Below are positions 9,001 through 23,647 of a DNA stretch of 51,349 nt, piece after piece. The stretch is from positions 343,087 to 394,435 of the forward strand of contig JBFXLE010000001.1 of the NCBI GenBank assembly GCA_050173015.1, given 5' to 3'. Origin of the DNA: Calditrichaceae bacterium. GTDB taxonomy: Bacteria; Calditrichota; Calditrichia; Calditrichales; JBFXGD01. Every line of letters begins with the position of its first letter. Within the stretch, counting starts at the first letter, position 1. Both the position numbers and the translations under genes were made by a program. A model generated the notes under the pieces. The model had not been told where the DNA came from and did no database searches. It saw only the letters and a list, made by a program, of their open reading frames with translations.

Positions 9001-12000
9001 GCTCAATCCTGATTCTTCCTATATGGAAATTCTTTCTTCGCCTATCTCCCGGAAATATCTTGCCGGTAAATTTACACTGGGCGGGCTTGATTCGACTGAG
9101 ATCTTATTCAACAGCCTCACGGTTCCTGTTACAATGGATACGGTTATTTATAATGTGAAATGGCGTCTAAAAGGAATATTGCTAAACGGGTCTGATTATG
9201 AAAAAGAAGAAATTATTTTCGGAGTTCTCAAAATTATTCCTGAGGCCAGACTCATATTCACCCAGATTAATATTTTACCCGAAACGGTAAGACAGGGACA
9301 AAATGATATCTCGATCAACTATACTTTGGCTAACATTGGGAAGTCATCGGCGGCCATCAGCAAGATTGATTATATATTCAACGCCGGAGCTACAAATGTC
9401 TCAACACAATGGCTCCCATCTACTATCAATCTGTTCCCGGACACACTCATCGCCGGACAAAGTCGAACCTATTCAATAAATTACAATTTATCGCAATCGG
9501 CAACGACCGGTATTGTCAAACCAAAACCGATTGTTTCCTACAGAGATCTACGGACATCGACTTTCACCGATACATCAAAAACTATCGTTTTCGGTGATTC
9601 TGTACTCGTGATACGTCCGGCCCTTGTGGGAATTGATTCATTAAAGATTATAAAAGATGCGCTTGCGCCGAATGCGCCTAATGTCAATCAGAATGAACCG
9701 TTTAACCTGTTGCTGAGACTTGTAAACAACGGTGCGGACACGATCCGGACCGCATATGTTTCGTTATCAAGAGATGATAATTTCCTGCAACAGCTTGTGA
9801 TGACCGATATCGCTCCATTTAATTACAAAACGTTGATTTACAGCTCTCCGGGATTGGCAATAGACGGATCGACGATATACAAAGTGAAGATTGATTCGGC
9901 GATTGAATTGACAGGAAATCTTGTGACGATTCAACAACCGGTTGATAATTTGGAAACGGTAGTCGTTCAGACCGCCAGCAGTTTAGCGCTCAACGCGGCG
10001 ATTGTTTCACCGGTCGGAGCGGTTGACGGAATTATATCAGTCGGGACAAAATTTAAACTACGCGCGGATGTAACCAGGGTGAGCGGCATTTCACCGTATG
10101 GGAACGGCAGGATGACATTGAGTCTGCCGGATACGGTCCATTACAAATTTGACAGTGATGTCGCGGAAAAAATATTTACACAGTCGCAGGCATATGCTGA
10201 ATGGAATTTGGAAGCGCTTGCAGTAAGTTCCGGTGGCATTTTTGACAGCCTGCGCATTCAGATGAATGAAATTCCGATTGATCTCAATACGGGAAGCGCT
10301 GTGACAACTGTAAAAACGATGGATACGGTTCTGGTCAGGACTGATGAGGCCGGTCTGGTTACCGCGGACATAAGCATTGCCTCACCCGAGGGCGCCCGGG
10401 ACAGCGTCATATCAACCGGACAGGAATTTGTACTTCATACGGAGATAGCTTTCAATCAGTCCGTTCGTGATACCGGCAGAGTAGCGCAGATTGTTCTGCC
10501 ATCCGGTTTCTCTGTAAAAACGAGTTCAATTATAGATTTACCAACTACGCCTACGGCTGCCGTTGATTGGGAAATAGTTGCTCCCGCTTCACCAACACAG
10601 GGAACAGTAAATATAAGTGTCCGGATAAACGGCTATGATAATAACAGTGGAGTTCCGGTTCAGACCACATCAAATCTTCTGCCTGTGCGGGTCGTGTTGA
10701 AATCATCACTGGTTCTGGGATTGAAGATTGTTGAACCCGCGGGCGCGACGGATGACACGGTGTCCGTTGGTCAGACGTTGAAGCTTGAAGGCTTAGTGAC
10801 GCTTCAACCGGGAACAGCTGCCATATCGGGAACCGGTAAGGCATCCATTCTTCTGAGCCCCGAATTTACTTTGATGGATCCGGATACACAAAGGACTTTC
10901 ACTGTAGGCATTCCTTTCTACTGGTGGGTTAGAGTGGATGGCGCATCCACAAAAAGCGCCGCATCGATGGCCGAATTAAAAAGTATTTTGAACGGCATGA
11001 ATAATAAAGACAGTTCACCCGATCTTTACGATGGTGGTGTTGAGCGTCTGGACGGTCCGGTCAATAATGTTGATTTACGGAAAGTGGTTAAAGAGGCGCT
11101 TATGGTAACCGCGGCAGCGAAAGATGCCTACCAGATTACCGTAAAAGTTGACAGTATTCCGCTTGATGTAAATACTCAGCTACCGGCGACCATCAATGAA
11201 ACACAAACAAAAACAATTTATACTGAAGACAGCGCTACTCTTAGTATTGTATCGACAGAAGCACCGGATACTGTCTCAAGCGGACAAACATTTACCTATG
11301 GCGTAACCGGTGCGATTAGTTCAAATCTGGCTAATCCGGTTGCCTATCTCTTAATGCCTGAAAAATTTGGCGGCGCGGTGATCGCCAGGGCTCTTGATAT
11401 TAACAATCAGGCCACTTGGGATATCGCGGTTCCGGCAAATTATACAGGAACTGGGAAAGACACCATTGAAGTGTTTTTAACGGGTATTGACAGAAACAGC
11501 GGTGAAGCGACAGATCCGACTCCGCTTGTGGCCAATCCTTTGACGGTGCAGTTGAGACCAAAACTTTCATTAAAACATACACTCCTATCACCGGTTTCCT
11601 CACAGGCCGGATTACTGTCGTTCGGACAGGAAGTAATAGTTGAGCTTTGGGCTGAATATGCCGAAAATACTTCAGGACTTGATTATGCTTCGGTTCAGGG
11701 TTCGGGAGCGATAAGTCTGGATTCTGCTCTTGTTATACAAAATGGATTTACGCTTGTCGAAGGTGAAACGTTTAAGAAGACATTTACGCAATTAGGTCAA
11801 AAACTGGTATGGCGCATCAAAGCTCCGTTATCAGAACGTACCGTGAGTATAAACTTTAGTTTTGCGGGACTTCCTATAGATAAGAACAGCGGTTTATCTG
11901 CCGAAATCGATATCATGACAGGCCTTGTTTCGCTTCCTGTCAGAGTCAGACAGAAAAATATCACAGTTCTCATGCTAAATGAACTTATTGTTGATAAGAG

Positions 12001-12829: not shown

Positions 12830-12843
12830 GTGAGATAGCGAGT

Positions 12844-14769
12844 ATGCAAATATTAAAAAAAATATTTAATAGAACAGAAGGCTTATTCGTCACTGTTTTC
12901 GCAATTTTGATATTTTCTTCCGGAGCGGTTGCCCAGGATGGACAGGGTGGGACGGAGAGCAACCTGAGTTTTGGTTATGGCGCCCGCTCGATGGGCATGG
13001 GTCATGCCTTTACAGCCATTGCGGATGATCCGACCGCTGTTTTCTGGAATCCTGCCGGCCTGGAATATATTTATCAACAAAGTGTTACTCTCTTTCACAT
13101 GTCTTTGTTTGAAGGCACGAATTATGATTTTCTCGGCTATGCATTCCCTACTCTTGGGTTGGGGACTTTTGGACTGGGTATTGGACGTATTGGAGTCGGT
13201 GAAATTTTACAGACGGACAGGGATAATGTTTATTTAGGAGAATTTTCTCAGGAAGATTATGAGTTTTATTTCTCATATGCCAAAAAATTGCCATGGGATT
13301 TATCATCAGGGGCAACGATTAGGGTTGTAAGGCGCTCGTGGAGTAACCTGTATGATGAAGGAAGTTTAAATGATATGGGTGTCGGTCTCGATTTAGGTAT
13401 CATGTATCGGCCGGGCTGGTTTACAAACAGATGGCTTCAGGATTGGTCTTTCGGGTTAAATATTCATAACTTATTTCCTCCGCAAGTTAAAGAAGGCATC
13501 GGTGTTGACGATTATCCGATGACCGTCCGCTTGGGTCTTAACAAAATAATCAGATTTGCCGGTGGAGGAGCATTAAACCTGGCCTTTGATTTTGATTATT
13601 CTGAAAAAAGAGATTTAAAACTGAATATGGGGACGGAGTATAGTTTTAGAGACATGGGAATGCTCAGACTGGGTATGGATACCAACGGGTTGACATACGG
13701 CGCCGGAGTTGAATATCGTTTCTTCCAGATAGATTATGGATTTGGCTCTACCGAGTACAGTGATTATTTCTCAGCGGTTCACCGAATTTCGCTGACGTTC
13801 AATTTCGGTTTGACCAGGGACGATCTTTTTACTATTGCCGAGGCCAAACGACAGGAAGAGGAAGATCGTATCATCGCCGAAATACGCGAGGCGGACAGGC
13901 AGCAGTCAATTGTCACACACCTGAAACTGGCGGATGAGTATTTTAACACTGAGAAATATCTGGATGCGATTGTTGAATATCAGCAGGTTATCGGACAGGA
14001 TCCGTTCCATTTCAGGGCAAAAGTGATGCTGGATTCTTCGAATACCATGCTACAGAAAGGTTTTGAATCACAACAGGCTCTCGCGGTCAAAGACGCCCTG
14101 GATAAAGACCGGGCTGAGAATGACAGACGCTATGTGAATGAGCATTTTGAGAAAGGTCGTTTATTCCTTGATAAAAAACAGTTTACAGAAGCATTAATCG
14201 AGTTTAATATATCTCTCGAACGCGATCCGAAGAATGAAACATTGTTGAATGCTATTTCTACTACAAAAAGAAGGCTTTCGGAGGAGATTAACAGCCTTGT
14301 TCGTAAGAGCAGGGAAGAATTTAAAAACCAGAATTATTCCGAAGCGTTGCGACTTCTTGCCGACGCAAGATTGCTTGGTGGGCAGAATGCCGAGTTACAG
14401 ACGGAAATCGAAGCTTTGGCTCAAAGAATAAAATTACAGGAAAATATTCAACAAGGCTTGCTTTTGTACGATATAGGAGAGTATAGTAAAGCATTACAGC
14501 TATTTGAAGGCGTTTTGGATATGGATCCTGAAAATCCGTTGGTTAAACAGTATGTTGAACGGTCGAAAGTCGAAACCATAGGCAAAGAAGATGAAATGGA
14601 TCCGGATGCGGAACGACTTTATCACGAAGGTGTAGAAAAATTTCTCATCGGTAAATATCAGGATGCGATCGGTCTATGGGAAGAAATTTTAATCAAACAT
14701 CCTTATAATAAGAAGGTCCTGGCGGCAATAAAAGGCGCAAAAGAACGTCTTAAGAGCACAGGCAAATAA
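12844..14769 (+). CDS. PorV/PorQ (UPF0164)-family outer-membrane beta-barrel fused to a C-terminal coiled-coil/TPR region
   Basis: Signal peptide ending AVA-QD. Signature GARSMGMGHAFTAIADDPTAVFWNPAGL. The barrel ends ...VHRISLTFNFG (about nt 13809) and is followed by TPR-like repeats (YLDAIVEYQQVIGQDP, FTEALIEFNISLERDPKN, YSKALQLFEGVLDMDPEN, YQDAIGLWEEILIKHP). Confidence 0.85.
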   Translation: MQILKKIFNRTEGLFVTVFAILIFSSGAVAQDGQGGTESNLSFGYGARSMGMGHAFTAIADDPTAVFWNPAGLEYIYQQSVTLFHMSLFEGTNYDFLGYAFPTLGLGTFGLGIGRIGVGEILQTDRDNVYLGEFSQEDYEFYFSYAKKLPWDLSSGATIRVVRRSWSNLYDEGSLNDMGVGLDLGIMYRPGWFTNRWLQDWSFGLNIHNLFPPQVKEGIGVDDYPMTVRLGLNKIIRFAGGGALNLAFDFDYSEKRDLKLNMGTEYSFRDMGMLRLGMDTNGLTYGAGVEYRFFQIDYGFGSTEYSDYFSAVHRISLTFNFGLTRDDLFTIAEAKRQEEEDRIIAEIREADRQQSIVTHLKLADEYFNTEKYLDAIVEYQQVIGQDPFHFRAKVMLDSSNTMLQKGFESQQALAVKDALDKDRAENDRRYVNEHFEKGRLFLDKKQFTEALIEFNISLERDPKNETLLNAISTTKRRLSEEINSLVRKSREEFKNQNYSEALRLLADARLLGGQNAELQTEIEALAQRIKLQENIQQGLLLYDIGEYSKALQLFEGVLDMDPENPLVKQYVERSKVETIGKEDEMDPDAERLYHEGVEKFLIGKYQDAIGLWEEILIKHPYNKKVLAAIKGAKERLKSTGK

Positions 14770-14790: not shown

Positions 14791-17700
14791 ATGTTTAAAA
14801 ATGTAAAAAAAGAAGAAATCACAATTCCGGCTCAGATGAGCTATCTGGTTCAGATACGGGATTTTGTTGAACATATCGGCAAAAAGTACCGATATGATGA
14901 AAAACTGATCAACTCTTTTAAGCTCGTTATTGATGAAGCATGTACAAATGTTATTCGCCATGGTTACAGAGATATCAAAAATGGTGAAATCACTGTTAAG
15001 GCCATTGCCCGCAGATTAAGCCTGACAATCGTCATTATCGATCAGGGACACACATACGATCCGAGACAAGCCAATACGCCCGATCTCGCGAAATATGTGG
15101 ATATCGGTAAAAAAGGCGGTTTGGGAATCATGATGATGCGAAAGCTCATGGATGATTTGCAGTACGCAGTTACCGAACGGGGCAATGAATTCAGGCTTAC
15201 CAAAAAACAGGAACCGCCTGAAGAATCTAAATTTATCAGCAAATGGCGGGCTTTTTCCTTAAGGGCCAAATACTCCCTGGTCGCATCACTTATACTCACT
15301 ATCATCACTACTTTTATTTTTTCCATATTTATTTTTGATGTCAGAAATGATGTTGACGAAGAAGTTTTTGCCCAGGCGGCATCCAATTGTCGTTCCCTCG
15401 CGGATAACGCGATTGACGATCTTCTGAATGAAAATACGCTGGGTTTATTTGAAAAGGCGCGTTCTGTAAAAAACAACAATGAAAAAATAATCCTGGAAGC
15501 ATTTGTTGTACTGCCTGATAACAGAATTGAGGCAAGAAGCACGCCGCTTAAAATGGATGGCCCCGGAAATTATTCAATTCCGGAGAATGCCGTTCAGCTG
15601 GATAGTTTACCTAATGTGAGAGTAATGAGCTATAGTTTAGGCGATAGTAGTCATATTTTTGACCTGTCAACAAATATTCGTCAGTCTTTGTCAGGTGAAG
15701 GCCCGACACTTGGAGAAGTTCATATTTGGGTTGATGAGCGGTCATTAATCGACCTTGCTTCCGCTAAGCGCCTTCGTTTAATCCTTTATTTATTTGTAAT
15801 AATAGCTATTGGTTATGTGGGTGCATTCTTTTTGATCCACCGCATCCTCACACCATTCCAGAATCTTGCTGAATGGGTGCGGCAGGTTGTACATGATAAA
15901 GTTGATCAGGATGAAATTGATATTGATACATCGGATGAACTTGGTGAAATTGCTCAGGCCATTAATGACATGAATTTTAAATTCCGTGAAGCCCAGGTAA
16001 ATCTGATGGAGCAGCAAAAATTGCAGAAGGAATTGCAGGTTGCTCAGGAAATACAGCAGATGCTTCTCCCGAGCGATTTCCCAAAAGTTGAAGGATTTGA
16101 GATTTCATCTTACTATGAAGCGGCAAAGGAAGTGGGCGGTGATTTATTCGATTTTGTTGAAGTCGATGAAGATACTATCGGGATAATTGTCGCTGACGTG
16201 TCCGGAAAAGGGGTTCCCGGATCACTTATCATGACCATGATACGTACCGCTCTGCGTCTGGAGTCACGTGGAAATAAAAATCCGGCGGATGTACTGGCTA
16301 AAGTAAACCGGTTTGTAACGGATGATATGAAACGAGGCATGTTTGTTACCATGTTTTATATCATTCTTGACTCGAGAAATAGAATCATTCATTATGCGAG
16401 CGCCGGACATAATCCGATGATTTTATACCGGGGATCAGCTAAAAAGACATACTACCTTAATCCATCCGGATTTCCCGTAGGAATTCAACTGCCCGATATT
16501 ACCCTGTTCGACAGGAAGATCGAGACAGATTCCATACGGTTAAGAGAAGATGATATTCTTGTGCTCTACACCGATGGAATTACAGAAGCAATGAATTCCA
16601 AAAGGGAATTGTACAGGGAAGAACGATTCCTGGACGCCATTCGTAATAACGGTCATCTTGATGTCGCGGAATTTGTAAGAAGTGTCAAAGATGATCTGAA
16701 AACATTTACCGGAGGCGCCCCTCAAAATGACGATATCACTTTCGTTTCGGTGAAAGAAAAATTAATGCCGGGCGAGGTGATTTACAAAATTCATAAGGAA
16801 TTACTTGATTTAATATCAAATGGAACCCGGGTGAAGGATGCATGTGATCAGATGCGGGTCTCTCAATATCATTATTACAAATATAAGAGCATTGTTGAAG
16901 AAGGCGGGTTAGACGCCCTGAGAGAATATCTCGAAGGGCAGGATTATGTTGAGAAAAAACATTTATCGGTGGAAGTTAAAGCCAAGGTCTTTGATATCAT
17001 TCGCAAACATCCGGAATATGGCGCGAATCGTATTTCTAATGATCTGAATACAGAGCTTTATGGTTTTGAAAAAGTTGATCCGCAGAGACTTTACAATGAA
17101 TTAGTTAAGTTAAAATTAAACACAAAGGAACAGCGGGTTAAATTTGTTAAGAAAGGTGATAAGAGGGCGCTTAAACAACCTGGCACGCCATTATTAACGC
17201 TTGATGGTAAAGTAATTATGAATTTTCAGTCCTCTGAAAGTGAGATCGCTAAGCGTAAAGGCGAACCTACCCAGAAACTGACAAGTCTGCCGATCGAATC
17301 GAAAAAAGCCGTTGTAAGGGAATTTAATACCGATAAAGCCTCAAAAACTGAAAAACAGGGCTCAGAAAGCGTATCTCCCCTTTTCCAGCATCAGACGGAA
17401 AAGCCTGCTGAGCCAGTTAAAGAACCTGATAAAGAGAAATTATCTGAAAAGGTTCCTCCGGCTGAGCACAAAACACCTGAACCAAAACAAGAACCTGAGG
17501 CGGTTCCAGGTCAGGAAAATGATAACAAAGAAACCATCACGGTCAATCAGGATGAGATATTATTTAAGCCAAAAGAACAAAGTGAAAAAAACAGAGAAGA
17601 CCGCGCTGATCGAGCTAAAGAAAAAAGTGATCAGATAGAAAGATTAGCCAGAAAACAGACAAGAGAAGATTTGTTAGCCACGGTGACTATAGAGACCGAT

Positions 17701-18192
17701 TCAGCGGAATTGGCGCACTTTTTTAATTCCATCGCCGACGATCTTGCAGGTATCTCATCTCTTATTAAGGGGATTGATGCCAGTGCCGATGGCGCCCAGG
17801 AGATGAAAAAAATTAATTTAATATTAAAAATTATGTTAAAGAATCCGATATTAAGAAAGCTGCCGGATGTCCAAAGGATTTATAAGCAGGCTCAGGAATC
17901 GGTCGCTCTTCTAGAGTCTAAGTTTAAGGATTTGGGTAAAGAATTTGCTTATTCCAAATTAAAAGACTTATTGAAATATGTCGAAAAAGATTATATATTG
18001 AGTGCTCAATCATCATTAACTGAAGTTAATAATAAAATCGGTATCATTCGCCGTCACATAACTGCAAAATTATCTGCAGCAAAAACTAAACAATCAAGTG
18101 AAATGGATCTTGCCCGGAAAAAGTTGGCTCAGAAAAAAATAGTCAGCAATGCTTCATTGCTGGAATCGTTAGTAAAGAATGACAAGAATTAA
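14791..18192 (+). CDS. Membrane-bound partner-switching regulator: RsbW-type Ser kinase (HATPase_c_2), TM, periplasmic domain, TM, HAMP, SpoIIE/PP2C phosphatase, HTH region, charged linker and helical C-terminal domain
   Basis: N-terminal kinase motifs LVIDEACTNVIRHGY, DQG..YDP and GGLGIMMMRKLMDD. Two hydrophobic helices. HAMP motif DELGEIAQAINDM. PP2C motifs AAKEVGGDLFD, ADVSGKGVP, SAGHNP, LYTDGITEA and QNDDIT. Confidence 0.9.
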   Translation: MFKNVKKEEITIPAQMSYLVQIRDFVEHIGKKYRYDEKLINSFKLVIDEACTNVIRHGYRDIKNGEITVKAIARRLSLTIVIIDQGHTYDPRQANTPDLAKYVDIGKKGGLGIMMMRKLMDDLQYAVTERGNEFRLTKKQEPPEESKFISKWRAFSLRAKYSLVASLILTIITTFIFSIFIFDVRNDVDEEVFAQAASNCRSLADNAIDDLLNENTLGLFEKARSVKNNNEKIILEAFVVLPDNRIEARSTPLKMDGPGNYSIPENAVQLDSLPNVRVMSYSLGDSSHIFDLSTNIRQSLSGEGPTLGEVHIWVDERSLIDLASAKRLRLILYLFVIIAIGYVGAFFLIHRILTPFQNLAEWVRQVVHDKVDQDEIDIDTSDELGEIAQAINDMNFKFREAQVNLMEQQKLQKELQVAQEIQQMLLPSDFPKVEGFEISSYYEAAKEVGGDLFDFVEVDEDTIGIIVADVSGKGVPGSLIMTMIRTALRLESRGNKNPADVLAKVNRFVTDDMKRGMFVTMFYIILDSRNRIIHYASAGHNPMILYRGSAKKTYYLNPSGFPVGIQLPDITLFDRKIETDSIRLREDDILVLYTDGITEAMNSKRELYREERFLDAIRNNGHLDVAEFVRSVKDDLKTFTGGAPQNDDITFVSVKEKLMPGEVIYKIHKELLDLISNGTRVKDACDQMRVSQYHYYKYKSIVEEGGLDALREYLEGQDYVEKKHLSVEVKAKVFDIIRKHPEYGANRISNDLNTELYGFEKVDPQRLYNELVKLKLNTKEQRVKFVKKGDKRALKQPGTPLLTLDGKVIMNFQSSESEIAKRKGEPTQKLTSLPIESKKAVVREFNTDKASKTEKQGSESVSPLFQHQTEKPAEPVKEPDKEKLSEKVPPAEHKTPEPKQEPEAVPGQENDNKETITVNQDEILFKPKEQSEKNREDRADRAKEKSDQIERLARKQTREDLLATVTIETDSAELAHFFNSIADDLAGISSLIKGIDASADGAQEMKKINLILKIMLKNPILRKLPDVQRIYKQAQESVALLESKFKDLGKEFAYSKLKDLLKYVEKDYILSAQSSLTEVNNKIGIIRRHITAKLSAAKTKQSSEMDLARKKLAQKKIVSNASLLESLVKNDKN

Positions 18193-18253: not shown

Positions 18254-18946
18254 ATGGAAGGAATTCAAGTCTCTACTGAGATTGCAGGTAGTCGGAATCA
18301 TATCTCCATTATAAAAGTTGGTGGATACATCGACACTACAACGTCATCTGAACTGGAGCGAGCACTGGATTCTCTTTTGAGACAAGGGCGGTTCTTCATT
18401 ATTGTTGATCTTGGTAATGTCGATTACATCAGTAGCGCGGGATGGGGGATATTTATCAGTGAGATCAAATCAATCAGAGAAAATGGCGGTGATTTAAAAT
18501 TAGTTCGCATGGTTCCTGATGTTTACGAAATATTTGAACTTCTGGAATTTCATCACATCCTTGATGTATATGATACTGTGGATGAAGCAATAAACAAATT
18601 TGAAATGCTGGAAGCCGCCGGAAAGTCGGTTGCAAAAGAAATCACACTTCCCAAAGCGCCTCAGCCGGCTCCAGCGCCACCAGCTCAAAGAACTGATGAC
18701 AGACGCGCGGAAAAGGTAGGCGTCGCCGAAGAACTTAATGAGATGAATCCGGCAGATCTGAGTATTTCGAGAAAGATACAACTCATTGTTAAGGAACAAC
18801 CTGGTTTTGGGGCGTATAAAATAAAAAAAGCCCTCAATACAGCAAAATTCGGTTATACCCGTATTGGCTGGTTTGAAGTACGCGCTGAGCTTGCGAAGAT
18901 GAGATTAAATAGCAAGTCGCGCAGATACGATTTTGCGACTTCCTGA
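18254..18946 (+). CDS. STAS anti-sigma-factor antagonist (RsbV/SpoIIAA-like) with Pro/Ala linker and C-terminal HTH-like domain
   Basis: Strong RBS AAGGAGG. STAS motifs GYIDTTT and IIVDLGNVDYISSAGWG, with Ser at the phospho-acceptor position. The C-terminal ~60 aa resemble part of the upstream protein. Confidence 0.9.
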   Translation: MEGIQVSTEIAGSRNHISIIKVGGYIDTTTSSELERALDSLLRQGRFFIIVDLGNVDYISSAGWGIFISEIKSIRENGGDLKLVRMVPDVYEIFELLEFHHILDVYDTVDEAINKFEMLEAAGKSVAKEITLPKAPQPAPAPPAQRTDDRRAEKVGVAEELNEMNPADLSISRKIQLIVKEQPGFGAYKIKKALNTAKFGYTRIGWFEVRAELAKMRLNSKSRRYDFATS

Positions 18947-18963: not shown

Positions 18964-19464
18964 ATGATAACTATTATGGATGTTGGTCTGGTCATGACCA
19001 TCCTAATTTCAATTTTATCTAATTTTTATGGTTTGCCGGGAAATTCACTGCTTGCCGGGAGCAGCCTTGTTTATGGTATTTTTACCGGATTTGAATCTTT
19101 TTCGATAACATTTGTTCTGACCCTGTTTGCCATTGTTGTTCTTATTGAATTTCTGGAATTTCTGATTATCTCTCTGACCGCTAAAAAATACGGTGCGTCA
19201 AAGTGGGGAATAAGCGGCGGGATTGTTGGAGGGATACTGGGCGCGATAAGCGGTGCTTTTATAACACCGGTTCTTGGGGCGATTATAGGATCCATTGCAG
19301 GAGTATTTTTGGGCGCGTTTGCACTTGAATTTATCAGAACGACTAATTTAAGAGGCAGTTTGTATTCGGGTCTTGGAGCATTTTTAGGCAAACTCGGCGG
19401 GCTGTCAATAAAAGTTATAGGAACCGTTACCATGGCAATCATGGTCGTCTCAAAAATAATTTAA
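18964..19464 (+). CDS. DUF456-family membrane protein
   Basis: Hydrophobic and Gly-rich, with LPG, AKKYGASKWG..GGIVG.ILG and G..AGVFLGAFALE motifs typical of DUF456/YqgC. Confidence 0.85.
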   Translation: MITIMDVGLVMTILISILSNFYGLPGNSLLAGSSLVYGIFTGFESFSITFVLTLFAIVVLIEFLEFLIISLTAKKYGASKWGISGGIVGGILGAISGAFITPVLGAIIGSIAGVFLGAFALEFIRTTNLRGSLYSGLGAFLGKLGGLSIKVIGTVTMAIMVVSKII

Positions 19465-19527
19465 TTGTAAATAAAAGTTTAAAAGGTTAATTTTCCCGGA
19501 ATGAATGCTCATTTCGGGTTTTTTTTT

Positions 19528-20178
19528 ATGAATATAAAAATCGTCTACTTTTGTACATTTCTTTTCTGGTCTGTATCCTTAAGTCAATCTGTTACACCCG
19601 TGCGGATTCAGTACGGCGGGGGTGGGGACTGGTATGGTAACAAGACCACCTGGGTGAATATTCTCGAAAAGGTTAAGAATGATTATAGCCTTTCTGTCGG
19701 CGGCAGAGAGGTTTCTTTCCGAATTACCGATCCTGAATTCAGACAATACCCCATTGCCTACATCGCCGGTCATGGTAATATATTTTTCACAGACCAGGAA
19801 GCGGCCGCTCTTCGAATATATCTTACAGAGGGCGGATTCCTCTTTGCTGATGATGATTATGGGATGGACAGATCTTTTCGCAGAGAGATGAAAAAGGTAT
19901 TCCCAGAACTGAATTTTGTAAAATTACCTTTCTCGCACCCCATATATCACTTAAAATATCAGTTTGAAAATGGTTTGCCTAAAATTCATGAGCATGCGGG
20001 AGGTCCGCCCGCCGGCTATGGGTTGCTATATGAGGACAGACTGGTTTGTTTCTACAGCTTTAATACGGATCTCAGCGACGGTTGCGAAGATCCGGAAATT
20101 CATAATGATCCTCCGGAAATAAGGGCGAAGGCGCTCGAAATGGCGGTGAACATATTTATCTATGCTTTGTTAAATTAA
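19528..20178 (+). CDS. DUF4159 domain-containing exported protein
   Basis: Motifs YGGGGDWY, GHGNI.F, YL..GGFLFADDDYGMD, LPKIHEH and DLSDGCEDPEIHNDP. The ATG at 19528 gives a signal peptide (the ORF track starts at 19501). Confidence 0.85.
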   Translation: MNIKIVYFCTFLFWSVSLSQSVTPVRIQYGGGGDWYGNKTTWVNILEKVKNDYSLSVGGREVSFRITDPEFRQYPIAYIAGHGNIFFTDQEAAALRIYLTEGGFLFADDDYGMDRSFRREMKKVFPELNFVKLPFSHPIYHLKYQFENGLPKIHEHAGGPPAGYGLLYEDRLVCFYSFNTDLSDGCEDPEIHNDPPEIRAKALEMAVNIFIYALLN

Positions 20179-20182
20179 TCTA

Positions 20183-23100
20183 ATGACTAAAGAACAAAAA
20201 CTTCTTGAGGAAATATACCGGTTTGGAAAGAGAGCGCTGCTCTTTGAGTTAGCGGGTAAAGTGCTGTATATGTTCATCCTGCTGCTTGTATTCTGGATCA
20301 GTATCAGTCTTGCCGATAACGCATTCTATTTCTCGGCGATTACGCGTTGGGGATTATTGATTATCAATATTACCGTATTGGTATTTCTCGGTTATTCCTT
20401 CGTTTATAAACCGCTAAACAACTGGATGTCCCTGACATCATCATCGAATCTAACTCCGGTTGCAAAAATGCTGGGGAAGACATATCCGATGATTGCGGAT
20501 AAACTTGTCAATACCTATCAACTGATAACAAAGCCTGATGAATGGACATCAGAATCTCTGCGCAATGCCGCCATTGACAACTTTTTGAAGCGCTCGGAAA
20601 ATATTGATTTCAGCTCAAAGCTTAAATTGAAATCATATCTTCCTGGCCTAAGATTAGTTATTTCTATTTTGTTCAGCGCTTCTACAATTATTGGGTTTCA
20701 TTTTCATGATGTTAGCCGTTCAACCTTACGCTTGTTAAATCCCTCGAATGAGTATAAAGAAATCCCTCTATACAATTTTAATATAAAACCCGGGGATGTG
20801 AGTGTTGAAAAGGGGAATTCCATTGAAATCGAAGCAAACTATTCAGGACCGCCGCTTAAGGATCTGAGTCTTGTTCTGATGGAGCCGGGAGGAAGAAAAA
20901 TCGTGCGGTCTCTCCCTATGGTCATGGAAAACCATGTTTACCGCGCCGCATTACCGGATGTTAAACTACCTTTTGAATACAGGCTTGAAGGTGTTCCGGA
21001 AAATGAACGTCAATGGAGTGACCGTCTCATCTCGGAAAATTATTCCGTTGAAGTATTAGTGCCTCCGGAAATTTCCAGAATAGATATCCTTCTGACGCCT
21101 CCGGCATACAGCGGTCTCGATAAACAGTATATCGACAGAAACGTCGGTGATATATACGCTCTCGCAGGAACTATCGCAGAGATAAGCCTGGTGACTCAAA
21201 ACCCTGTTCTGGAAGGAAAGATTTATTTTAATTCAGGAGATTCCGTAAATCTTCGGGTGAGGGGAAATCATCTTGAAGGAAAATTTTTCGTAAATAAAAA
21301 TGACCGTTATTCGATCCGGTTAAAAGACAATCAGCATCTTTCCAATATTAATCCCATTGAATACACGGTAAAAATTATGCCCGATAATCCGCCCTGGGTT
21401 GAACTTGTTGAACCCGGAAAAGATATCGAGAGTCCTCTTGACGCCAGAATTCAATTGAAAATCGAAGCATCGGATGATTATGGAATTGGATACGCGTCTT
21501 TATTGTTTCGCTTTGTAAGAAATAATGATTCGTCTGCCGATACCCTCTGGTCAGAAATAAAGCTAAATTCAATAGATGGTAATCGCACCAATAAAGAATA
21601 TTACTACATTTGGGATTTTAATACGCTTCATCTCACATTTAATGACGGTATAAAATATTACGCTCTTGTAAAAGACAACAATGTTGTACGGGGCCCGGGA
21701 CTGGGCAAAAGTAAAATATATTACGTCAGATTTCCCTCGCTTGATGAACTATTTGACTCATTCGCTAAAACTGAACAGGAGAAAGTTGAAGATCTGGAAG
21801 AAGTTGCCAAAAAATCCGAAGATTTAAAAAAGACCCTTGAAGAAATTCACCGTGATCTTAAACGCGAGCAGAAAATGGACTGGGAGACAAAAGCGCAGAT
21901 TGAGAAGACATTAGCTGAGCAACAAAAATTACAAAAGAAACTTGAAGATATCCGGAATGAACTCGAAAAGATGATCGAAAAACTGGATCAAAACAATCTG
22001 ATCAGCCAGGATGTGCTTGAGAAATATATGGAATTGCAGGAATTATTCCGCGAGATAGCAACTCCGGAAATGATGGAGGCCATGCAGGAACTTCAGAAAG
22101 CGCTGGATCAGGCGAATCCAAACGAAATCCAAAGGGCCATGGAAAAATTTAATTTAAACCAGGAAGCCTTTAAGCAAAATGTGGAAAGAACCATTGAGTT
22201 ACTGAAACAGGTGCAATTGGAACAGAAAATGGATCAACTGGTTCAGCAGGCAAAAAATCTTTCTGAACAACAGGAAAAAATTAGCAAAGCATTGAATGAA
22301 GAGGAATTAAACCGTGATGCAATGGATCAATTAGAGACACAGCAGGCACAGCAGGAGGCCAGCTCCGAAGTGCTGGAACAGGGACTGGAAAAACTGGCCC
22401 GGGATCCGTCACTAAATCCTTTTCCGGAATTGATGGAAAATTTAGATTCGGCCGCGGATTTACTGAATGATCCGTCATTTAACAACAGCATGAATGAGAT
22501 GAAACAGAATCTGAGTCAGGGAGATCAGAACGCCGCTTCAGAAAAATCGAAAGATCTTCAGCAAACATTTCAACAGCTTCAGCATAGGTTGAGTTCTGCC
22601 AAAGACCAAATGCAAAACAAGCATAAAAATCAGATTATGAAGAAAATGTCAACGACAATAAGCAGAATGCTTCAACTTTCGCATGAGCAGGAAATTCTTA
22701 AACAACAGACAGAATCCGCGTCAAATCTGGGGACTGAAACACAGAATATCGCGCGCGAACAGGGACGGGTTTTGGAGAATTTTCAAAAAGTCATACACGA
22801 TATTATTCAGCTGTCCAAAGAAACCTTCTTTATCGGACCGGAATTGATTAAACCAATCGGAAACGCGCAATCCAGCATGCACAGAAGCCTGGACGCGCTG
22901 AGCGAAATGAGAAACAGCCAGGCGTCGGGTCAACAGCAGCAGGCAATGGCCGGGTTAAATGAAGGCATTGCTCAAATGCAGATGGCAATGTCACAACTGT
23001 CTAATTCGCAATCGGGAACAGGACTCGAGCAGTTTTTGGAGCAACTTCAACAAATGGCGGGCGCCCAGGGTCAGATCAATCAGGGATCGATGGGTTTGAT

Positions 23101-23578
23101 TCAGGGGCAGGGAAATCAGGGACAGTTCACTCCCGGACAACAGGCTGAAATGAGAAGACTTGCGGGCCAACAGCAGGCGCTTCGGGACGCATTGCAAAAA
23201 ATGAATGAGGAAACGGGTTCGCGCGGAGATGTTCTAGGCCGAATTGGCGAATTGGGTCAACAAATGGAAGAAGTCGTAAGGGATTTGTTAAAAGGAAACG
23301 CAGATAGAAAAACGATTGAACGCCAGCGTCAAATTTTATCGCGTCTTTTAGACGCCCAAAAATCCGTTCAGGAGCGTGAATATTCAAAGCAGCGAAAAGC
23401 AGAAAAGGCAAAAGACTATATAGCGAAAGATCCGCGGGAAATTGAGAATCAGGAAGATAAAAATCGAAAAGAAATCCTTGACGCGATGCGAAGAGCTTTA
23501 AATGAAGGGTATAATCCTGATTTTCAGAAACTCATCGAGGCGTATTTTAAATCCCTGAGTACAGCAGAAACAAAATAA
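20183..23578 (+). CDS. DUF4175-family membrane-anchored protein with Ig-like domains and long Gln/Glu-rich coiled coil
   Basis: Three N-terminal TM segments. Motifs PPAYSGL, PDNPP.V.L..P, ASDDYGI and YYALVKDNN. The QQ-rich helical C-terminus ends YQ/FQKLIEAYFKSL-type. Confidence 0.8.
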   Translation: MTKEQKLLEEIYRFGKRALLFELAGKVLYMFILLLVFWISISLADNAFYFSAITRWGLLIINITVLVFLGYSFVYKPLNNWMSLTSSSNLTPVAKMLGKTYPMIADKLVNTYQLITKPDEWTSESLRNAAIDNFLKRSENIDFSSKLKLKSYLPGLRLVISILFSASTIIGFHFHDVSRSTLRLLNPSNEYKEIPLYNFNIKPGDVSVEKGNSIEIEANYSGPPLKDLSLVLMEPGGRKIVRSLPMVMENHVYRAALPDVKLPFEYRLEGVPENERQWSDRLISENYSVEVLVPPEISRIDILLTPPAYSGLDKQYIDRNVGDIYALAGTIAEISLVTQNPVLEGKIYFNSGDSVNLRVRGNHLEGKFFVNKNDRYSIRLKDNQHLSNINPIEYTVKIMPDNPPWVELVEPGKDIESPLDARIQLKIEASDDYGIGYASLLFRFVRNNDSSADTLWSEIKLNSIDGNRTNKEYYYIWDFNTLHLTFNDGIKYYALVKDNNVVRGPGLGKSKIYYVRFPSLDELFDSFAKTEQEKVEDLEEVAKKSEDLKKTLEEIHRDLKREQKMDWETKAQIEKTLAEQQKLQKKLEDIRNELEKMIEKLDQNNLISQDVLEKYMELQELFREIATPEMMEAMQELQKALDQANPNEIQRAMEKFNLNQEAFKQNVERTIELLKQVQLEQKMDQLVQQAKNLSEQQEKISKALNEEELNRDAMDQLETQQAQQEASSEVLEQGLEKLARDPSLNPFPELMENLDSAADLLNDPSFNNSMNEMKQNLSQGDQNAASEKSKDLQQTFQQLQHRLSSAKDQMQNKHKNQIMKKMSTTISRMLQLSHEQEILKQQTESASNLGTETQNIAREQGRVLENFQKVIHDIIQLSKETFFIGPELIKPIGNAQSSMHRSLDALSEMRNSQASGQQQQAMAGLNEGIAQMQMAMSQLSNSQSGTGLEQFLEQLQQMAGAQGQINQGSMGLIQGQGNQGQFTPGQQAEMRRLAGQQQALRDALQKMNEETGSRGDVLGRIGELGQQMEEVVRDLLKGNADRKTIERQRQILSRLLDAQKSVQEREYSKQRKAEKAKDYIAKDPREIENQEDKNRKEILDAMRRALNEGYNPDFQKLIEAYFKSLSTAETK

Positions 23579-23647
23579 TTCACTAATTAACCGATCCTAT
23601 CTTTTCTCTTGGTTGTATCATACCATATTTTTAAATAAATTGTTTTT

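What the first reader, a model, noticed from the sequence alone, without database searches (positions are those of the whole stretch)
18755..18943. The STAS protein carries a second copy of the same homeodomain-like module as its cognate enzyme
Seen: the STAS C-terminus LSISRKIQLIVKEQPGFGAYKIKKALNTAKFGYTRIGWFEVRAELAKMRLNSKSRRYDF aligns almost without gaps with LSVEVKAKVFDIIRKHPEYGANRISNDLNTELYGFEKVDPQRLYNELVKLKLNTKEQRVKF of the upstream protein. Shared features include P.(F/Y)GA..I...LNT..(F/Y)G(Y/F), EL.K..LN(S/T)K..R..F. The module is attached through a Pro/Ala linker. Established: RsbV/SpoIIAA proteins are normally about 110-aa stand-alone STAS domains. Inference: the paired modules could heterodimerise, bind the same DNA site, or make the STAS protein a phosphorylation-controlled transcription factor.
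Basis: partly seen in the sequence, partly recalled or inferred. Interest (0 to 1): 0.75.

Follow-up and report, generated by a model that had tools for sequence, protein, structure and literature searches.

The report
Transposase-derived HTH shared by STAS and enzyme
A small DNA-binding-type domain borrowed from a transposase sits on both a signalling enzyme and the two switch proteins it probably controls, across a whole bacterial phylum, which suggests a phosphorylation switch with its own built-in output domain.

Summary
Residues 169-227 of the 230-aa STAS protein (window 18254-18946) align without gaps to residues 727-785 of the upstream 1133-aa RsbW-kinase/HAMP/PP2C enzyme (31% identity, E 2e-8).

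A second STAS protein (271 aa) in an exopolysaccharide locus on another contig carries the module too.

All 61 of 61 sampled genomes of the phylum (Calditrichota, by source names) have the module, and 47 have exactly three matches. Only 320 of 1.84 billion cluster representatives match it.

The module is the second helix-turn-helix of an IS481-type transposase DNA-binding region. It folds with high confidence as a four-helix HTH (pLDDT 94.8). It is strongly basic on the STAS proteins (+7 to +9).

My best reading is a SypE/SypA-like kinase/phosphatase switch whose STAS substrates carry their own nucleic-acid-binding output, functionally like CapS (2026). Binding of DNA, or of one module to another, is not shown. 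I class it as a new variant of a known kind, of moderate to high interest.

The parts
14791..18192 (+). Gene for the 1133-aa bifunctional membrane enzyme. Order of domains: RsbW-like Ser kinase, two TM segments flanking a sensor loop, HAMP, PP2C phosphatase, HTH_23-like HTH, shared module, low-complexity region, C-terminal helical region.
   Evidence: ORF; Pfam domains; NCBIfam RsbW, SiaA-like and IS481 partial matches. The TM segments (about residues 160-185 and 325-349) are read directly from the sequence.
14824..15204 (+). HATPase_c_2 (RsbW/SpoIIAB-type serine kinase) domain, residues 12-138
   Evidence: PF13581 E 2e-26, 92.9 bits against cut-off 27.4. NF003144 RsbW E 5.2e-19, below its equivalog cut-off.
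15829..15972 (+). HAMP domain, residues 347-394
   Evidence: PF00672 E 2.9e-7, 31.2 bits against cut-off 25.
16168..16755 (+). SpoIIE/PP2C serine phosphatase domain, residues 460-655
   Evidence: PF07228 E 1.9e-50.
16804..16923 (+). First HTH (HTH_23/HTH_28-like), residues 672-711. Present only in the enzyme.
   Evidence: Weak in this protein (HTH_23 E 0.0025 on the fragment). Significant in orthologues (for example P0215 HTH_28 1.5e-12). Part of the IS481 N-terminal match 673-781.
16969..17145 (+). Enzyme copy of the shared module (second HTH), residues 727-785
   Evidence: BLASTP to STAS 169-227, E 2e-8. Aligned to IS481 transposase residues about 75-133.
17173..17217 (+). Conserved post-module motif K795..P797 G798 . 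P800 .. T803 . D805 G806, invariant in 22 enzyme sequences
   Evidence: Invariant columns. It resembles 'KAPGYLIAMD' at the equivalent place of the IS481 transposase printed; that resemblance is inference.
18254..18946 (+). Gene for the 230-aa STAS+module protein ('STAS1')
   Evidence: ORF. Orthologues 69-100% identical at 99-100% coverage.
18293..18589 (+). STAS domain, residues 14-112; fold like SpoIIAA/RsbV
   Evidence: PF01740 72.1 bits; TIGR00377 67.7 bits against cut-off 53.45. Foldseek hits 1thn_B, 6m36 and 1vc1 at E about 1e-7, TM (target) 0.83-0.89.
18434..18436 (+). Codon of Ser61, the predicted phosphorylation site
   Evidence: HMMER aligns 'YISSAGWG' to 'YMDSAGLG' of TM1442 and 'YMDSTGLG' of RsbV. 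S61 is invariant in 12 sequences. That this Ser is the phospho-site in SpoIIAA/RsbV is recalled; for SypA S56 see PMC4517449.
18614..18748 (+). Variable Pro/Ala/charged linker, residues 121-165
   Evidence: Not conserved among orthologues; pLDDT <50 for 125-163.
18758..18943 (+). STAS1 copy of the shared module, residues 169-230: four helices (171-181, 187-194, 206-215, 221-229), net charge +9
   Evidence: for the alignment. AF2 of the module alone gives pLDDT 94.8 and pTM 0.81. Charge.

Best explanation
**What it is.** The shared roughly 60-aa module is the second helix-turn-helix of an IS481/Tc3-type transposase DNA-binding region. It was exapted long ago and is now fixed in three proteins of this lineage: a membrane-bound bifunctional RsbW-kinase/HAMP/PP2C-phosphatase, the STAS protein encoded next to it (STAS1), and a paralogous STAS protein (STAS2) inside an exopolysaccharide export locus.

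**How it most likely works.**
- Shown by homology only: the sensor enzyme sets the phosphorylation state of the conserved Ser61 of both STAS proteins, as SypE does for SypA.
- Inferred: the STAS proteins do not merely titrate an anti-sigma factor. Each carries its own output, a strongly basic HTH on a flexible linker that binds nucleic acid. The STAS phospho-state, perhaps through STAS-mediated oligomerisation or masking by the acidic STAS domain, would then switch transcription of envelope and EPS genes. This is functionally like CapS.
- Inferred: the enzyme's own HTH pair, of the same origin, places it at the same partner or site as its substrates.
For: **Homology of the three copies**
- BLASTP E 2e-8.
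- In the organism's own genome, exactly 3 matches at E<=10.
- Modules cluster by host protein into three coherent groups.

**HTH identity**
- Enzyme 673-781 against the NCBIfam IS481 transposase model, positions 7-112, E 5.8e-8.
- Enzyme 681-791 against residues 27-133 of a real IS481-family transposase from a related genome, E 1e-8. The module profile hits the same transposase at 84-126.
- Relatives reach HTH_32 at 1.4e-8, HTH_Tnp_Tc3_2 at 7.9e-7 and HTH_21.
- AF2 model pLDDT 94.8. Its best structural neighbours are DNA-binding HTH/wHTH domains: ArgR/AhrC, Lrp, the sigma-54 RpoN domain, Fur, MecI, NarL at Z 4.7-5.6; Pax paired, SETMAR and the Sleeping Beauty RED domain among weak Foldseek rows.

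**Selection**
- 61 of 61 sampled genomes have the module, and 47 of 61 have exactly 3 matches.
- The enzyme-type and a STAS-type match lie within about 2 kb on one contig in at least 46 of the 61 (coordinates).
- Both loci are syntenic in a different family of the phylum.

**Charge**
- Mean net charge is +7.2 (STAS1 group, 62 sequences) and +9.2 (STAS2 group, 73 sequences), against +2.4 (enzyme group, 38 sequences).
- In this organism's STAS1 protein the STAS domain is -11 and the module +9.

**Switch components**
- STAS fold like SpoIIAA/RsbV, with Ser61 aligned to the conserved Ser.
- Kinase and phosphatase domains sit in one upstream protein.

**Link between STAS2 and the enzyme**
- STAS2 has no kinase or phosphatase gene among its neighbours.
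- Its STAS domain is the closest paralogue of STAS1's (47% identity).
- It shares the module with only that enzyme, out of 10 SpoIIE and 5 HATPase_c_2 matches over cut-off in the genome.

**Precedents**
- CapS, a STAS-wHTH repressor released by Ser phosphorylation (PMC13373217).
- SypE/SypA, a fused kinase/phosphatase with a STAS substrate in a polysaccharide locus (PMC4517449, passages read).
Against: - No DNA binding, dimerisation or phosphorylation has been measured.
- The STAS proteins carry only one of the transposase's two HTHs, and a single HTH generally binds weakly unless oligomerised (general knowledge).
- Pfam finds nothing in this protein's C-terminal 70 aa even at E<=10. Structural matches are middling (Z<=5.6; Foldseek E>=0.9), which the tool itself says may reflect only a common helical arrangement.
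- The predicted recognition helix carries conserved Trp-Phe in the STAS1 group and is poorly conserved across the three groups. That suits a protein contact as well as it suits DNA.
- The enzyme is an integral membrane protein, an awkward place for a DNA-binding domain.
- STAS1 lies mid-operon, 61 nt after the enzyme gene, not beside an obvious promoter.
- I found no palindromic operator. The inverted repeat upstream of STAS2 behaves like a hairpin, with compensatory changes and a variable loop, rather than like a protein site.
- SypA and All4160 show that STAS proteins in polysaccharide loci can act post-transcriptionally.
Confidence: 0.45

Rival explanations
1. Docking or address tag. The module has lost DNA binding and serves as a homotypic protein-protein handle. 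The enzyme's copy binds the copies on STAS1 and STAS2, which raises local substrate concentration and insulates this pathway from the many other partner-switching modules in the cell.
For: - The module occurs in exactly the enzyme and two STAS proteins. The genome holds 11 STAS, 10 SpoIIE and 5 HATPase_c_2 (over cut-off) matches, and the others lack it.
- STAS2 is encoded far from any kinase or phosphatase gene, so it needs some way to find its enzyme.
- The three-way co-occurrence holds in 47 of 61 genomes, and the module is present in 61 of 61.
- Conserved exposed-looking aromatic residues (W206, F207) lie in the third helix of the STAS1 group.
- Substrate docking is known to set PPM phosphatase specificity, though through loops of the catalytic domain (PMC11418112, abstract read).
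Against: - I know of no example of this HTH type acting as a heterodimerisation domain (recalled, not searched).
- All three module groups carry net positive charge (+2.4 to +9.2), which does not favour module-module association.
- The strongly basic character of the STAS copies is not explained.
- Co-occurrence is explained equally well by binding to a common third partner such as DNA.
Confidence: 0.25
2. Direct, post-transcriptional regulator of the envelope or EPS machinery. Unphosphorylated STAS+module proteins bind and regulate neighbouring membrane proteins: the initiating sugar transferase, the Wza-like exporter, the Wzc-like tyrosine kinase, or the PorV/T9SS-associated proteins. The basic module would contact an acidic protein surface, the membrane or a polyanionic polymer rather than DNA.
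For: - STAS2 sits between a Bac_transf initiating glycosyltransferase and Poly_export/Wzc-like genes, in this genome and in a second family of the phylum.
- SypA, the first gene of the syp polysaccharide locus, is reported to act at a post-transcriptional level through an unknown partner (PMC4517449, passages read).
- In Anabaena a STAS domain fused to a glycosyltransferase is regulated directly by phosphorylation (PMC13555669, abstract read).
- NCBIfam gives a partial match of the enzyme to the biofilm phosphatase SiaA (E 2.7e-16, far below cut-off).
Against: - The module's nearest sequence relatives are all DNA-binding HTH regions of transposases.
- The same module is on the enzyme and on STAS1, whose neighbours are different genes.
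- Nothing here points to a specific protein target.
Confidence: 0.2
3. Canonical anti-sigma antagonist with a passive appendage. STAS1 and STAS2 work like RsbV/SpoIIAA by binding the enzyme's RsbW-like domain and freeing a sigma factor, and the module is a neutral remnant of a transposase insertion.
For: - The STAS domain and the RsbW-like domain are typical of the canonical system.
- A six-site asymmetric promoter-like motif, TGTAAnTGAsnnGGCGGAGC, precedes STAS2 and a second EPS export operon. It could mark an alternative sigma regulon.
Against: - A neutral remnant would not be kept in three proteins in 61 of 61 genomes, with group-specific conservation and a confidently folded structure.
- No sigma-factor family appeared among the Pfam hits of the genes scanned around either locus. 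This was not a dedicated search.
Confidence: 0.07

Closest known systems
CapK/CapS (EMBO J 2026, PMC13373217)
   Same: - A STAS protein with a C-terminal HTH-type domain serves as the phosphorylation-controlled output.
- The cognate anti-sigma-type kinase also carries an HTH domain.
- A conserved Ser lies in the STAS domain.
   Different: - The CapS HTH is an ArsR/MarR-like winged helix joined directly to STAS (residues 112-184). Here it is an IS481/HTH_32-type helix bundle on a disordered linker of about 45 aa.
- CapK is a soluble HTH-STAS-GHKL kinase activated by ssDNA, with no phosphatase domain. Here the enzyme is a membrane sensor with both kinase and PP2C domains.
- The HTH on CapK and the one on CapS are not reported as the same module.
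- The CapKS genes sit upstream of immune operons. Here the context is envelope and EPS genes.
- No sequence match to any solved STAS-HTH protein was found.
SypE/SypA of Vibrio fischeri (PMC4517449)
   Same: - One polypeptide combines an RsbW-like Ser kinase and a PP2C phosphatase, and both act on a STAS protein.
- A STAS gene is embedded in a polysaccharide biosynthesis and export locus.
- The output is not known to be a sigma factor.
   Different: - SypE is a soluble response regulator with a central receiver domain. Here there are two TM segments, a sensor loop and HAMP instead.
- SypA is a single-domain STAS protein.
- No HTH module occurs on either protein.
RsbU/RsbV/RsbW and SpoIIE/SpoIIAA/SpoIIAB partner-switching modules
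   Same: The STAS fold, the conserved Ser, and the kinase and PP2C domain families.
   Different: - The canonical STAS proteins are stand-alone, about 110 aa.
- Their kinase and phosphatase are separate proteins.
- Their output is release of a sigma factor.
- This genome has a canonical-looking PP2C-STAS-RsbW cluster elsewhere, on contig C19.
IS481-family transposase N-terminal DNA-binding region (Pfam HTH_23 + HTH_32; NCBIfam NF033577)
   Same: The enzyme's residues 673-791 are collinear with transposase residues 7-133, which span both HTHs. The shared module corresponds to the second HTH.
   Different: - There is no DDE (rve) catalytic domain. Only a short conserved motif remains where it would begin.
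- The region is embedded in signalling proteins, is single-copy and syntenic, and is fixed across a phylum. It is an exapted domain, not a mobile element.
HenR/All4160 of Anabaena (PMC13555669)
   Same: A phospho-switchable STAS domain is fused to its own output domain and controls a polysaccharide layer. A PP2C phosphatase acts on it.
   Different: The output domain there is a glycosyltransferase. Here it is an HTH.

Membership tests
Anti-sigma factor antagonist (STAS; SpoIIAA/RsbV type) | STAS domain above the curated cut-offs | tested here: met
   PF01740 72.1 bits against cut-off 22.6. TIGR00377 67.7 against 53.45. Foldseek to SpoIIAA/RsbV at E about 1e-7.
Anti-sigma factor antagonist (STAS; SpoIIAA/RsbV type) | Conserved phosphorylatable Ser in the D-S-x-G loop | tested here: met
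   S61 aligns with the Ser of 'MDSAG' (TM1442) and 'MDSTG' (RsbV). It is invariant in 12 sequences. The preceding Asp is replaced by Ser60.
Anti-sigma factor antagonist (STAS; SpoIIAA/RsbV type) | Cognate RsbW-type kinase and PP2C phosphatase encoded nearby | tested here: met
   Both domains are in the adjacent upstream gene. Adjacency is kept in at least 46 of 61 genomes.
Anti-sigma factor antagonist (STAS; SpoIIAA/RsbV type) | Single-domain protein of about 110 aa | tested here: not met
   The protein is 230 aa, with a linker and a folded C-terminal module.
Anti-sigma factor antagonist (STAS; SpoIIAA/RsbV type) | Acts by freeing a sigma factor from the kinase | not testable with these tools
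   No sigma-factor family appeared among the Pfam hits of neighbouring genes. No dedicated search was made.
CapS-type STAS-wHTH repressor | ArsR/MarR-like winged HTH directly following the STAS domain | tested here: not met
   The module's sequence relatives are transposase HTH_32, HTH_21 and Tc3_2 types. It is separated from STAS by a disordered linker of about 45 aa. Structural neighbours include wHTH proteins, but only at Z<=5.6.
CapS-type STAS-wHTH repressor | Partner kinase of CapK architecture (HTH-STAS-GHKL), upstream of an immune operon | tested here: not met
   The partner here is HATPase_c_2-TM-HAMP-SpoIIE-HTH-HTH. The neighbours are T9SS/envelope and EPS genes.
CapS-type STAS-wHTH repressor | Sequence-specific DNA binding released by Ser phosphorylation | not testable with these tools
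   This needs EMSA or ChIP with S61 variants.
SypE/SypA-type biofilm switch | RsbW-like kinase and PP2C phosphatase in one polypeptide | tested here: met
   HATPase_c_2 at 12-138 and SpoIIE at 460-655 in one ORF.
SypE/SypA-type biofilm switch | Central receiver (REC) domain controlling the two activities | tested here: not met
   No REC domain. Two TM segments and HAMP lie between the catalytic domains.
SypE/SypA-type biofilm switch | STAS substrate encoded in a polysaccharide locus | tested here: met
   The paralogue STAS2 lies between Bac_transf and Poly_export/Wzc-like genes in G000 and G010. That it is a substrate of this enzyme is inferred.
IS481-family transposase | N-terminal bipartite HTH region | tested here: met
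   For the enzyme: NF033577 positions 7-112, E 5.8e-8; BLASTP to a transposase scoring 233 bits on that model, E 1e-8. For STAS1 and STAS2, only the second HTH, linked through the enzyme copy and the profile.
IS481-family transposase | DDE (rve) catalytic core; whole-protein score over the cut-off | tested here: not met
   32.6 bits against a cut-off of 224. No rve domain in Pfam.
Pfam HTH_32 (PF13565, 'Homeodomain-like domain') | Score over the gathering cut-off (33.7 bits) | tested here: inconclusive
   This organism's enzyme fragment scores 13.8 bits (E 0.086), and its STAS C-terminus gets no hit. The relative P0215 reaches 35.6 bits over a region that includes the module.

The most novel reading that the evidence does not exclude
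A transposase DNA-binding domain was domesticated as a common 'address' shared by a signalling enzyme and its substrates. The membrane-anchored kinase/phosphatase, through its bipartite HTH pair, and the two STAS-HTH proteins would assemble on the same DNA sites. One candidate site is the asymmetric 20-bp element TGTAAnTGAsnnGGCGGAGC, which precedes STAS2 and a second EPS export operon. Phosphorylation and dephosphorylation of a transcription factor would then take place on the chromosome at the membrane, coupling envelope sensing directly to EPS and surface-protein gene expression without any sigma factor.
Probability: 0.12. Interest if true: 0.8.

Novelty: new variant of a known kind. Interest (0 to 1): 0.6.

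Why it matters
Partner-switching modules are among the most widespread bacterial signalling devices. Outside the sigma-factor paradigm their outputs are mostly unknown; SypA and BtrV are examples. In this case the output domain is written into the STAS protein itself, and the same domain is also on the enzyme. The arrangement is conserved in every sampled genome of a phylum.

If the module binds DNA, this is a second, independently evolved class of phosphorylation-controlled STAS transcription factors after CapS, and it points to control of exopolysaccharide and surface-protein genes. If it is a docking tag instead, it would be a new solution to the problem of keeping many parallel kinase/phosphatase/STAS systems insulated from each other.

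Either way it is a clean example of a transposase domain being exapted into a signalling pathway. It also makes a testable prediction: one enzyme serves two substrates encoded in different loci.

Tried and rejected
- **Complex prediction** of enzyme 660-812 (alignment A4) with STAS1 161-230 (alignment A1): verdict 'no answer', score 0.00 against a mark of 0.32; the controls were not run. This is neither support for nor evidence against module-module binding.
- **Pfam on this protein's C-terminal 70 aa:** no family at E<=10.
- **Foldseek of the module model against PDB:** no match at E<=0.001; the best was 3ulq_B at E 0.89. VIA-align wide search: best Z 5.6, and no row stands out.
- **Foldseek of the full STAS1 model:** found only STAS proteins. 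No STAS-HTH entry such as CapS appeared in the PDB copy, which runs to 8 April 2026. phmmer against PDB sequences likewise matched only single-domain STAS chains.
- **ESM Atlas search with residues 161-230:** no usable hit.
- **The search for related loci on genome contigs with alignment A3:** These are Caldithrix/Calditrichae/Calditrichaeota labels, 'candidate division KSB1' for enzyme homologues, and one Chlamydiales MAG protein with repeated HTH_21-like units.
- **Operator search.** The inverted repeat TTRCAG..CTGTAA upstream of STAS2 has a variable loop (3-12 nt by my script) and compensatory changes in the stem. I read it as a hairpin rather than a dimer-binding palindrome. The adjacent conserved block could not be fitted to sigma-70 (-35/-10 spacing) or sigma-54 (-24/-12) geometry by eye. 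Rfam found nothing above E 0.1. The motif is absent from the window.
- **Rejected: the module as a chance or low-complexity similarity.** This is ruled out.
- **Rejected: a live insertion sequence.** There is no DDE domain, and the position is fixed and syntenic.
Full report
**1. The observation**

The window encodes a 1133-aa protein (14791..18192, +). A 230-aa protein follows 61 nt downstream (18254..18946, +).

Pfam assigns these domains to the large protein:
- an RsbW/SpoIIAB-type kinase domain (HATPase_c_2, residues 12-138)
- HAMP (347-394)
- a PP2C phosphatase domain (SpoIIE, 460-655)
- weak HTH_23/HTH_28 matches at 672-711

It assigns a STAS domain (14-112) to the small protein. Two hydrophobic stretches, at about residues 160-185 and 325-349, flank a loop of roughly 140 aa. 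I read the enzyme as a membrane sensor with both catalytic domains in the cytoplasm; this comes from reading the sequence, not from a topology tool.

BLASTP between the two proteins gives one significant alignment: STAS 169-227 against enzyme 727-785, 31% identity, 59% positives, no gaps, E 2e-8. The quoted start coordinate is one codon early.

The linker (121-165) is Pro/Ala/charged. It varies in length and sequence between orthologues and is predicted disordered (pLDDT <50 for 125-163).

**2. A third copy, and fixation across a phylum**

A six-frame search of the organism's own 4.34-Mb assembly with the 70-aa C-terminus found exactly three matches at E<=10: the query, the enzyme (E 2.2e-6), and a 271-aa ORF on another contig (E 9e-6).

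That ORF is a second STAS protein with the module at its C-terminus (STAS2). Its STAS domain is the closest paralogue of STAS1's in the genome (47% identity). The next closest (40%) is a stand-alone 118-aa STAS in a PP2C-STAS-RsbW cluster on contig C19.

The genome holds 11 STAS matches, 10 SpoIIE matches and 5 HATPase_c_2 matches over cut-off. Only these two STAS proteins and this one enzyme carry the module.

A profile of the three copies was searched in 61 genomes sampled across the phylum:
- 61 of 61 have the module.
- 47 have exactly three matches, 11 have two, 1 has one and 2 have four.
- The matches lie in open frames of about 230-250 aa, 260-290 aa and 870-1200 aa. The tool warns that matches are not copy numbers, and many of the genomes with two matches are under 95% complete.

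From the listed coordinates, the enzyme-type match and a STAS-type match lie within about 2 kb on the same contig in at least 46 of the 61 genomes. Twenty-two matches were not listed.

Source names attached to the STAS1 orthologues are Caldithrix/Calditrichae/Calditrichaeota. The top 120 hits are 69-100% identical at 99-100% coverage. The STAS domain is almost invariant among them. The module is conserved but more variable, and the linker is free to vary.

**3. How rare the module is, and where else it occurs**

The three-sequence profile was scored against 1.84 billion cluster representatives. It found 320 at E<=1e-3 and 144 at E<=1e-10.

I scanned 44 of the listed 150 with Pfam, chosen for unusual lengths:
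- 18 are STAS+module proteins. Nine of them carry an unexplained N-terminal extension of roughly 140-290 aa.
- 21 contain SpoIIE followed by the HTH region. They come with or without the N-terminal kinase domain, often with C-terminal TPR repeats, and one has an N-terminal TIR domain.
- 2 look like C-terminal fragments of such enzymes.
- 2 had no family.
- 1 (P0173, named as a Chlamydiales MAG protein) has five tandem HTH_21-like units.

Enzyme homologues P0157 and P0192 carry NCBI names from 'candidate division KSB1'.

They fall into three groups that match the host protein: STAS1-like, STAS2-like and enzyme-like. The set is biased by the 120 close STAS1 orthologues.

The simplest history is one ancient acquisition followed by divergence of three lineages of the module.

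**4. What the module is**

This protein's C-terminal 70 aa gets no Pfam hit at E<=10, but the family can be placed.
- NCBIfam aligns enzyme residues 673-781 to positions 7-112 of the IS481 transposase model (E 5.8e-8, 32.6 bits). That is far under the whole-protein cut-off because only the N-terminal region is present.
- A transposase from a related genome scores 233 bits on that model. It aligns over its residues 27-133 to enzyme 681-791 (27% identity, E 1e-8 in a five-sequence database), and a profile of all modules hits it at 84-126.
- In relatives, the region that includes the module reaches HTH_32 at 1.4e-8 (P0215), and the module itself reaches HTH_Tnp_Tc3_2 at 7.9e-7 (P0125).

So the enzyme carries both HTHs of a transposase-type bipartite DNA-binding region, and the STAS proteins carry only the second.

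There is no DDE domain. Directly after the module, however, 22 aligned enzymes share an invariant K..PG.P..T.DG motif. It resembles the 'KAPGYLIAMD' that follows at the equivalent place in the transposase. This may be a relic of the start of the catalytic core; that is inference.

AlphaFold2 on a 31-sequence alignment of the module gives pLDDT 94.8 and pTM 0.81, with four helices.

Foldseek finds no PDB match at E<=0.001, and VIA-align gives Z of 4.7-5.6 at best. The lists are nonetheless almost entirely DNA-binding HTH or winged-HTH domains: ArgR/AhrC, Lrp/AsnC, the sigma-54 RpoN domain, Fur, MecI, PadR, NarL, Pax paired, SETMAR and the Sleeping Beauty RED domain. By the tool's own calibration these scores show only a common helical arrangement. 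I therefore rest the HTH assignment on the sequence evidence.

**5. Properties that bear on function**

Charge:
- Mean net charge is +7.2 (STAS1 group, 62 sequences after 80% redundancy filtering), +9.2 (STAS2 group, 73) and +2.4 (enzyme group, 38).
- In this organism's STAS1 protein the STAS domain is -11, the linker 0 and the module +9.

Conservation:
- Positions conserved in all three groups are mostly core-like: P23, I30, L34, G40, L53, L58 and R64 in module numbering.
- The third helix would be the recognition helix. It has a conserved G-W-F-x-V-R in the STAS1 group but differs in the other two.
- The C-terminal helix and tail are basic and aromatic. The STAS2 group has 'K.KRYRFYRS'.

Phospho-site: the STAS domain aligns with TM1442, RsbV and SpoIIAA, with Ser61 opposite their conserved Ser. 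Its fold matches SpoIIAA and RsbV (E about 1e-7).

**6. Genomic context**

*Locus 1 (this window).* Gene order on the + strand:
- a 4270-aa Big_1-repeat protein with a FlgD_ig-like C-terminus
- a PorV/PorQ-family plus TPR protein
- the enzyme
- STAS1
- DUF456
- DUF4159
- DUF4175
- a patatin-POTRA-Omp85 protein

All have short gaps between them. The order PorV-TPR, enzyme, STAS1, DUF4159, DUF4175, patatin-Omp85 recurs in a genome of another family of the phylum (G010).

*Locus 2.* The rpsB-tsf-pyrH-frr genes are followed by:
- a Bac_transf initiating sugar transferase
- STAS2
- a Poly_export (Wza-like) gene
- a Wzc-like tyrosine autokinase
- an asparagine-synthase-like amidotransferase
- an AMP-ligase
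- a glycosyltransferase

There are sub-threshold similarities to XrtA/PEP-CTERM-associated EPS genes. The core order (sugar transferase, STAS2, exporter, Wzc-like) recurs in G010.

No kinase or phosphatase gene lies near STAS2. Together with the shared module, this makes the window's enzyme its most likely modifier (inference).

**7. A candidate regulatory element (side finding)**

A core T(G/A)A(C/G)nnGGCG(A/G)AGC lies 33-46 nt upstream of the STAS2 start codon in 18 of 23 genomes examined. In 13 of the 23 it is preceded by TGTAA.

Just 5' of it, many genomes have an inverted repeat, TTRCAG..CTGTAA. Its inner stem differs between genomes but stays complementary, and its loop varies in length. 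That is hairpin-like behaviour.

This organism's genome has six sites matching the core, and all six are preceded by TGTAA. The reversed control pattern has three matches. The sites precede STAS2, a second Poly_export/chain-length operon and a few other genes. None lies in the window. Rfam has no match.

I could not assign the element to a sigma-factor geometry. It is a lead for the target of an HTH protein or an alternative sigma factor, and it is not evidence for the module's function.

**8. Mechanism**

The domain content is that of a partner-switching module in which kinase and phosphatase are fused, as in SypE (PMC4517449, passages read). Here control comes from a transmembrane sensor and HAMP rather than a receiver domain.

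The step I regard as well supported by homology is reversible phosphorylation of Ser61 of STAS1 and, by inference, of STAS2.

The output is open.
- **Nucleic-acid-binding output (0.45).** I rank this first because of the module's descent from a DNA-binding domain, its conserved strongly basic charge on the STAS proteins, STAS2's position within the EPS gene cluster directly after a conserved upstream element, and the demonstrated precedent of CapS. CapS is a STAS-wHTH repressor whose dimer and DNA binding are broken by Ser phosphorylation, and its kinase CapK also carries an HTH of unknown role (PMC13373217).
- **Docking or address function (0.25).** This explains the striking restriction of the module to one enzyme and two STAS proteins among many paralogues. 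It does not explain the charge.
- **Direct post-transcriptional action on the EPS or envelope machinery (0.2).** This is suggested by SypA and by the STAS-glycosyltransferase All4160 (PMC13555669, abstract read).
- **Passive remnant (0.07).** Conservation essentially excludes this.

The single complex prediction gave no verdict.

**9. Comparison and novelty**

What I could not find in print is a transposase-derived HTH shared between a partner-switching enzyme and its STAS substrates, or any description of this architecture in Calditrichota.
- Five full-text searches returned nothing on it.
- The 2021 review of STAS-domain-only proteins contains none of 'DNA-binding', 'helix-turn-helix' or 'fused' (PMC8256260, term search).
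- Subscription journals are not covered by that library.

I class the finding as a new variant of a known kind. It fails the defining features of CapS-type proteins (different HTH class, different partner, different context) and of SypE/SypA (no receiver domain, STAS not single-domain), while plausibly working like a hybrid of the two.

**10. Verdict**

Interest 0.6.

Noticed in passing
Own genome G000:C26:38846-38866 (-) = L015 about 9821-9900 (-); also C27:41222, C1:204271, C3, C36:25838, C37:12400: There is an asymmetric conserved element, TGTAAnTGAsnnGGCGGAGC. Its core sits 33-46 nt upstream of the STAS2 start codon in 18 of 23 genomes of the phylum (13 of 23 with TGTAA). This organism's genome has six sites, one of them before a second Poly_export/chain-length operon. 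Upstream of STAS2 it is preceded by a hairpin-like inverted repeat, TTRCAG..CTGTAA, with compensatory stem changes and a variable loop. It does not fit sigma-70 or sigma-54 spacing by eye, and Rfam has no match.
   Followed up: partly
window 17173-17217 (enzyme residues 795-809): The motif K795..P797 G798. P800 .. T803. D805 G806 is invariant in 22 aligned enzymes, directly after the module. It resembles 'KAPGYLIAMD' at the matching position of a real IS481 transposase. It may be a relic of the first strand of the lost DDE core.
   Followed up: partly
window 17-14769: A 4270-aa Big_1-repeat protein with a FlgD_ig-like C-terminus is followed by a PorV/PorQ-family barrel fused to TPR repeats (NF033709, 144.9 bits against cut-off 90). 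This suggests a type IX secretion cargo and shuttle pair in the same apparent operon as the enzyme and STAS1.
   Followed up: partly
window 18964-26308: Downstream of STAS1 lie DUF456, DUF4159, DUF4175 (1131 aa, with a long Gln/Glu-rich coiled region) and a patatin-POTRA-Omp85 fusion. The order DUF4159, DUF4175, patatin-Omp85 is conserved in G010.
   Followed up: partly
P0173 (487 aa; named a Chlamydiales MAG hypothetical protein): This protein has five tandem stretches matching the module profile, scored by Pfam as HTH_21 (E 2.9e-23). It is the only hit examined outside the STAS and PP2C architectures.
   Followed up: no
P0182 (805 aa): Its architecture is TIR - SpoIIE - HTH/module - TPR: a TIR domain replaces the kinase and sensor part of the enzyme.
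   Followed up: no
P0227, P0238, P0244, P0248, P0251, P0253, P0267, P0268, P0269 (327-486 aa): These STAS+module proteins carry an extra N-terminal region of roughly 140-290 aa that matches no Pfam family at E<=1e-3.
   Followed up: no
P0125 (386 aa) and P0141 (383 aa): Each of these STAS proteins has two stretches matching the module profile, so the HTH appears to be duplicated.
   Followed up: no
G000:C19:43154-48447: This is a canonical-looking partner-switching cluster: a PP2C, a 118-aa stand-alone STAS and a 151-aa RsbW-like kinase, plus two more PP2C genes. None carries the module, and its STAS is the next-closest paralogue of STAS1 (40% identity).
   Followed up: partly
L015 676-8225 (-) (own genome, contig C26): The EPS locus next to STAS2 has sub-threshold similarity to XrtA/PEP-CTERM-associated genes: amidotransferase TIGR03108 at 454 bits against cut-off 817, acyl-CoA ligase TIGR03098 at 427 against 592, and tyrosine autokinase TIGR03018 at 121 against 231.
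   Followed up: no
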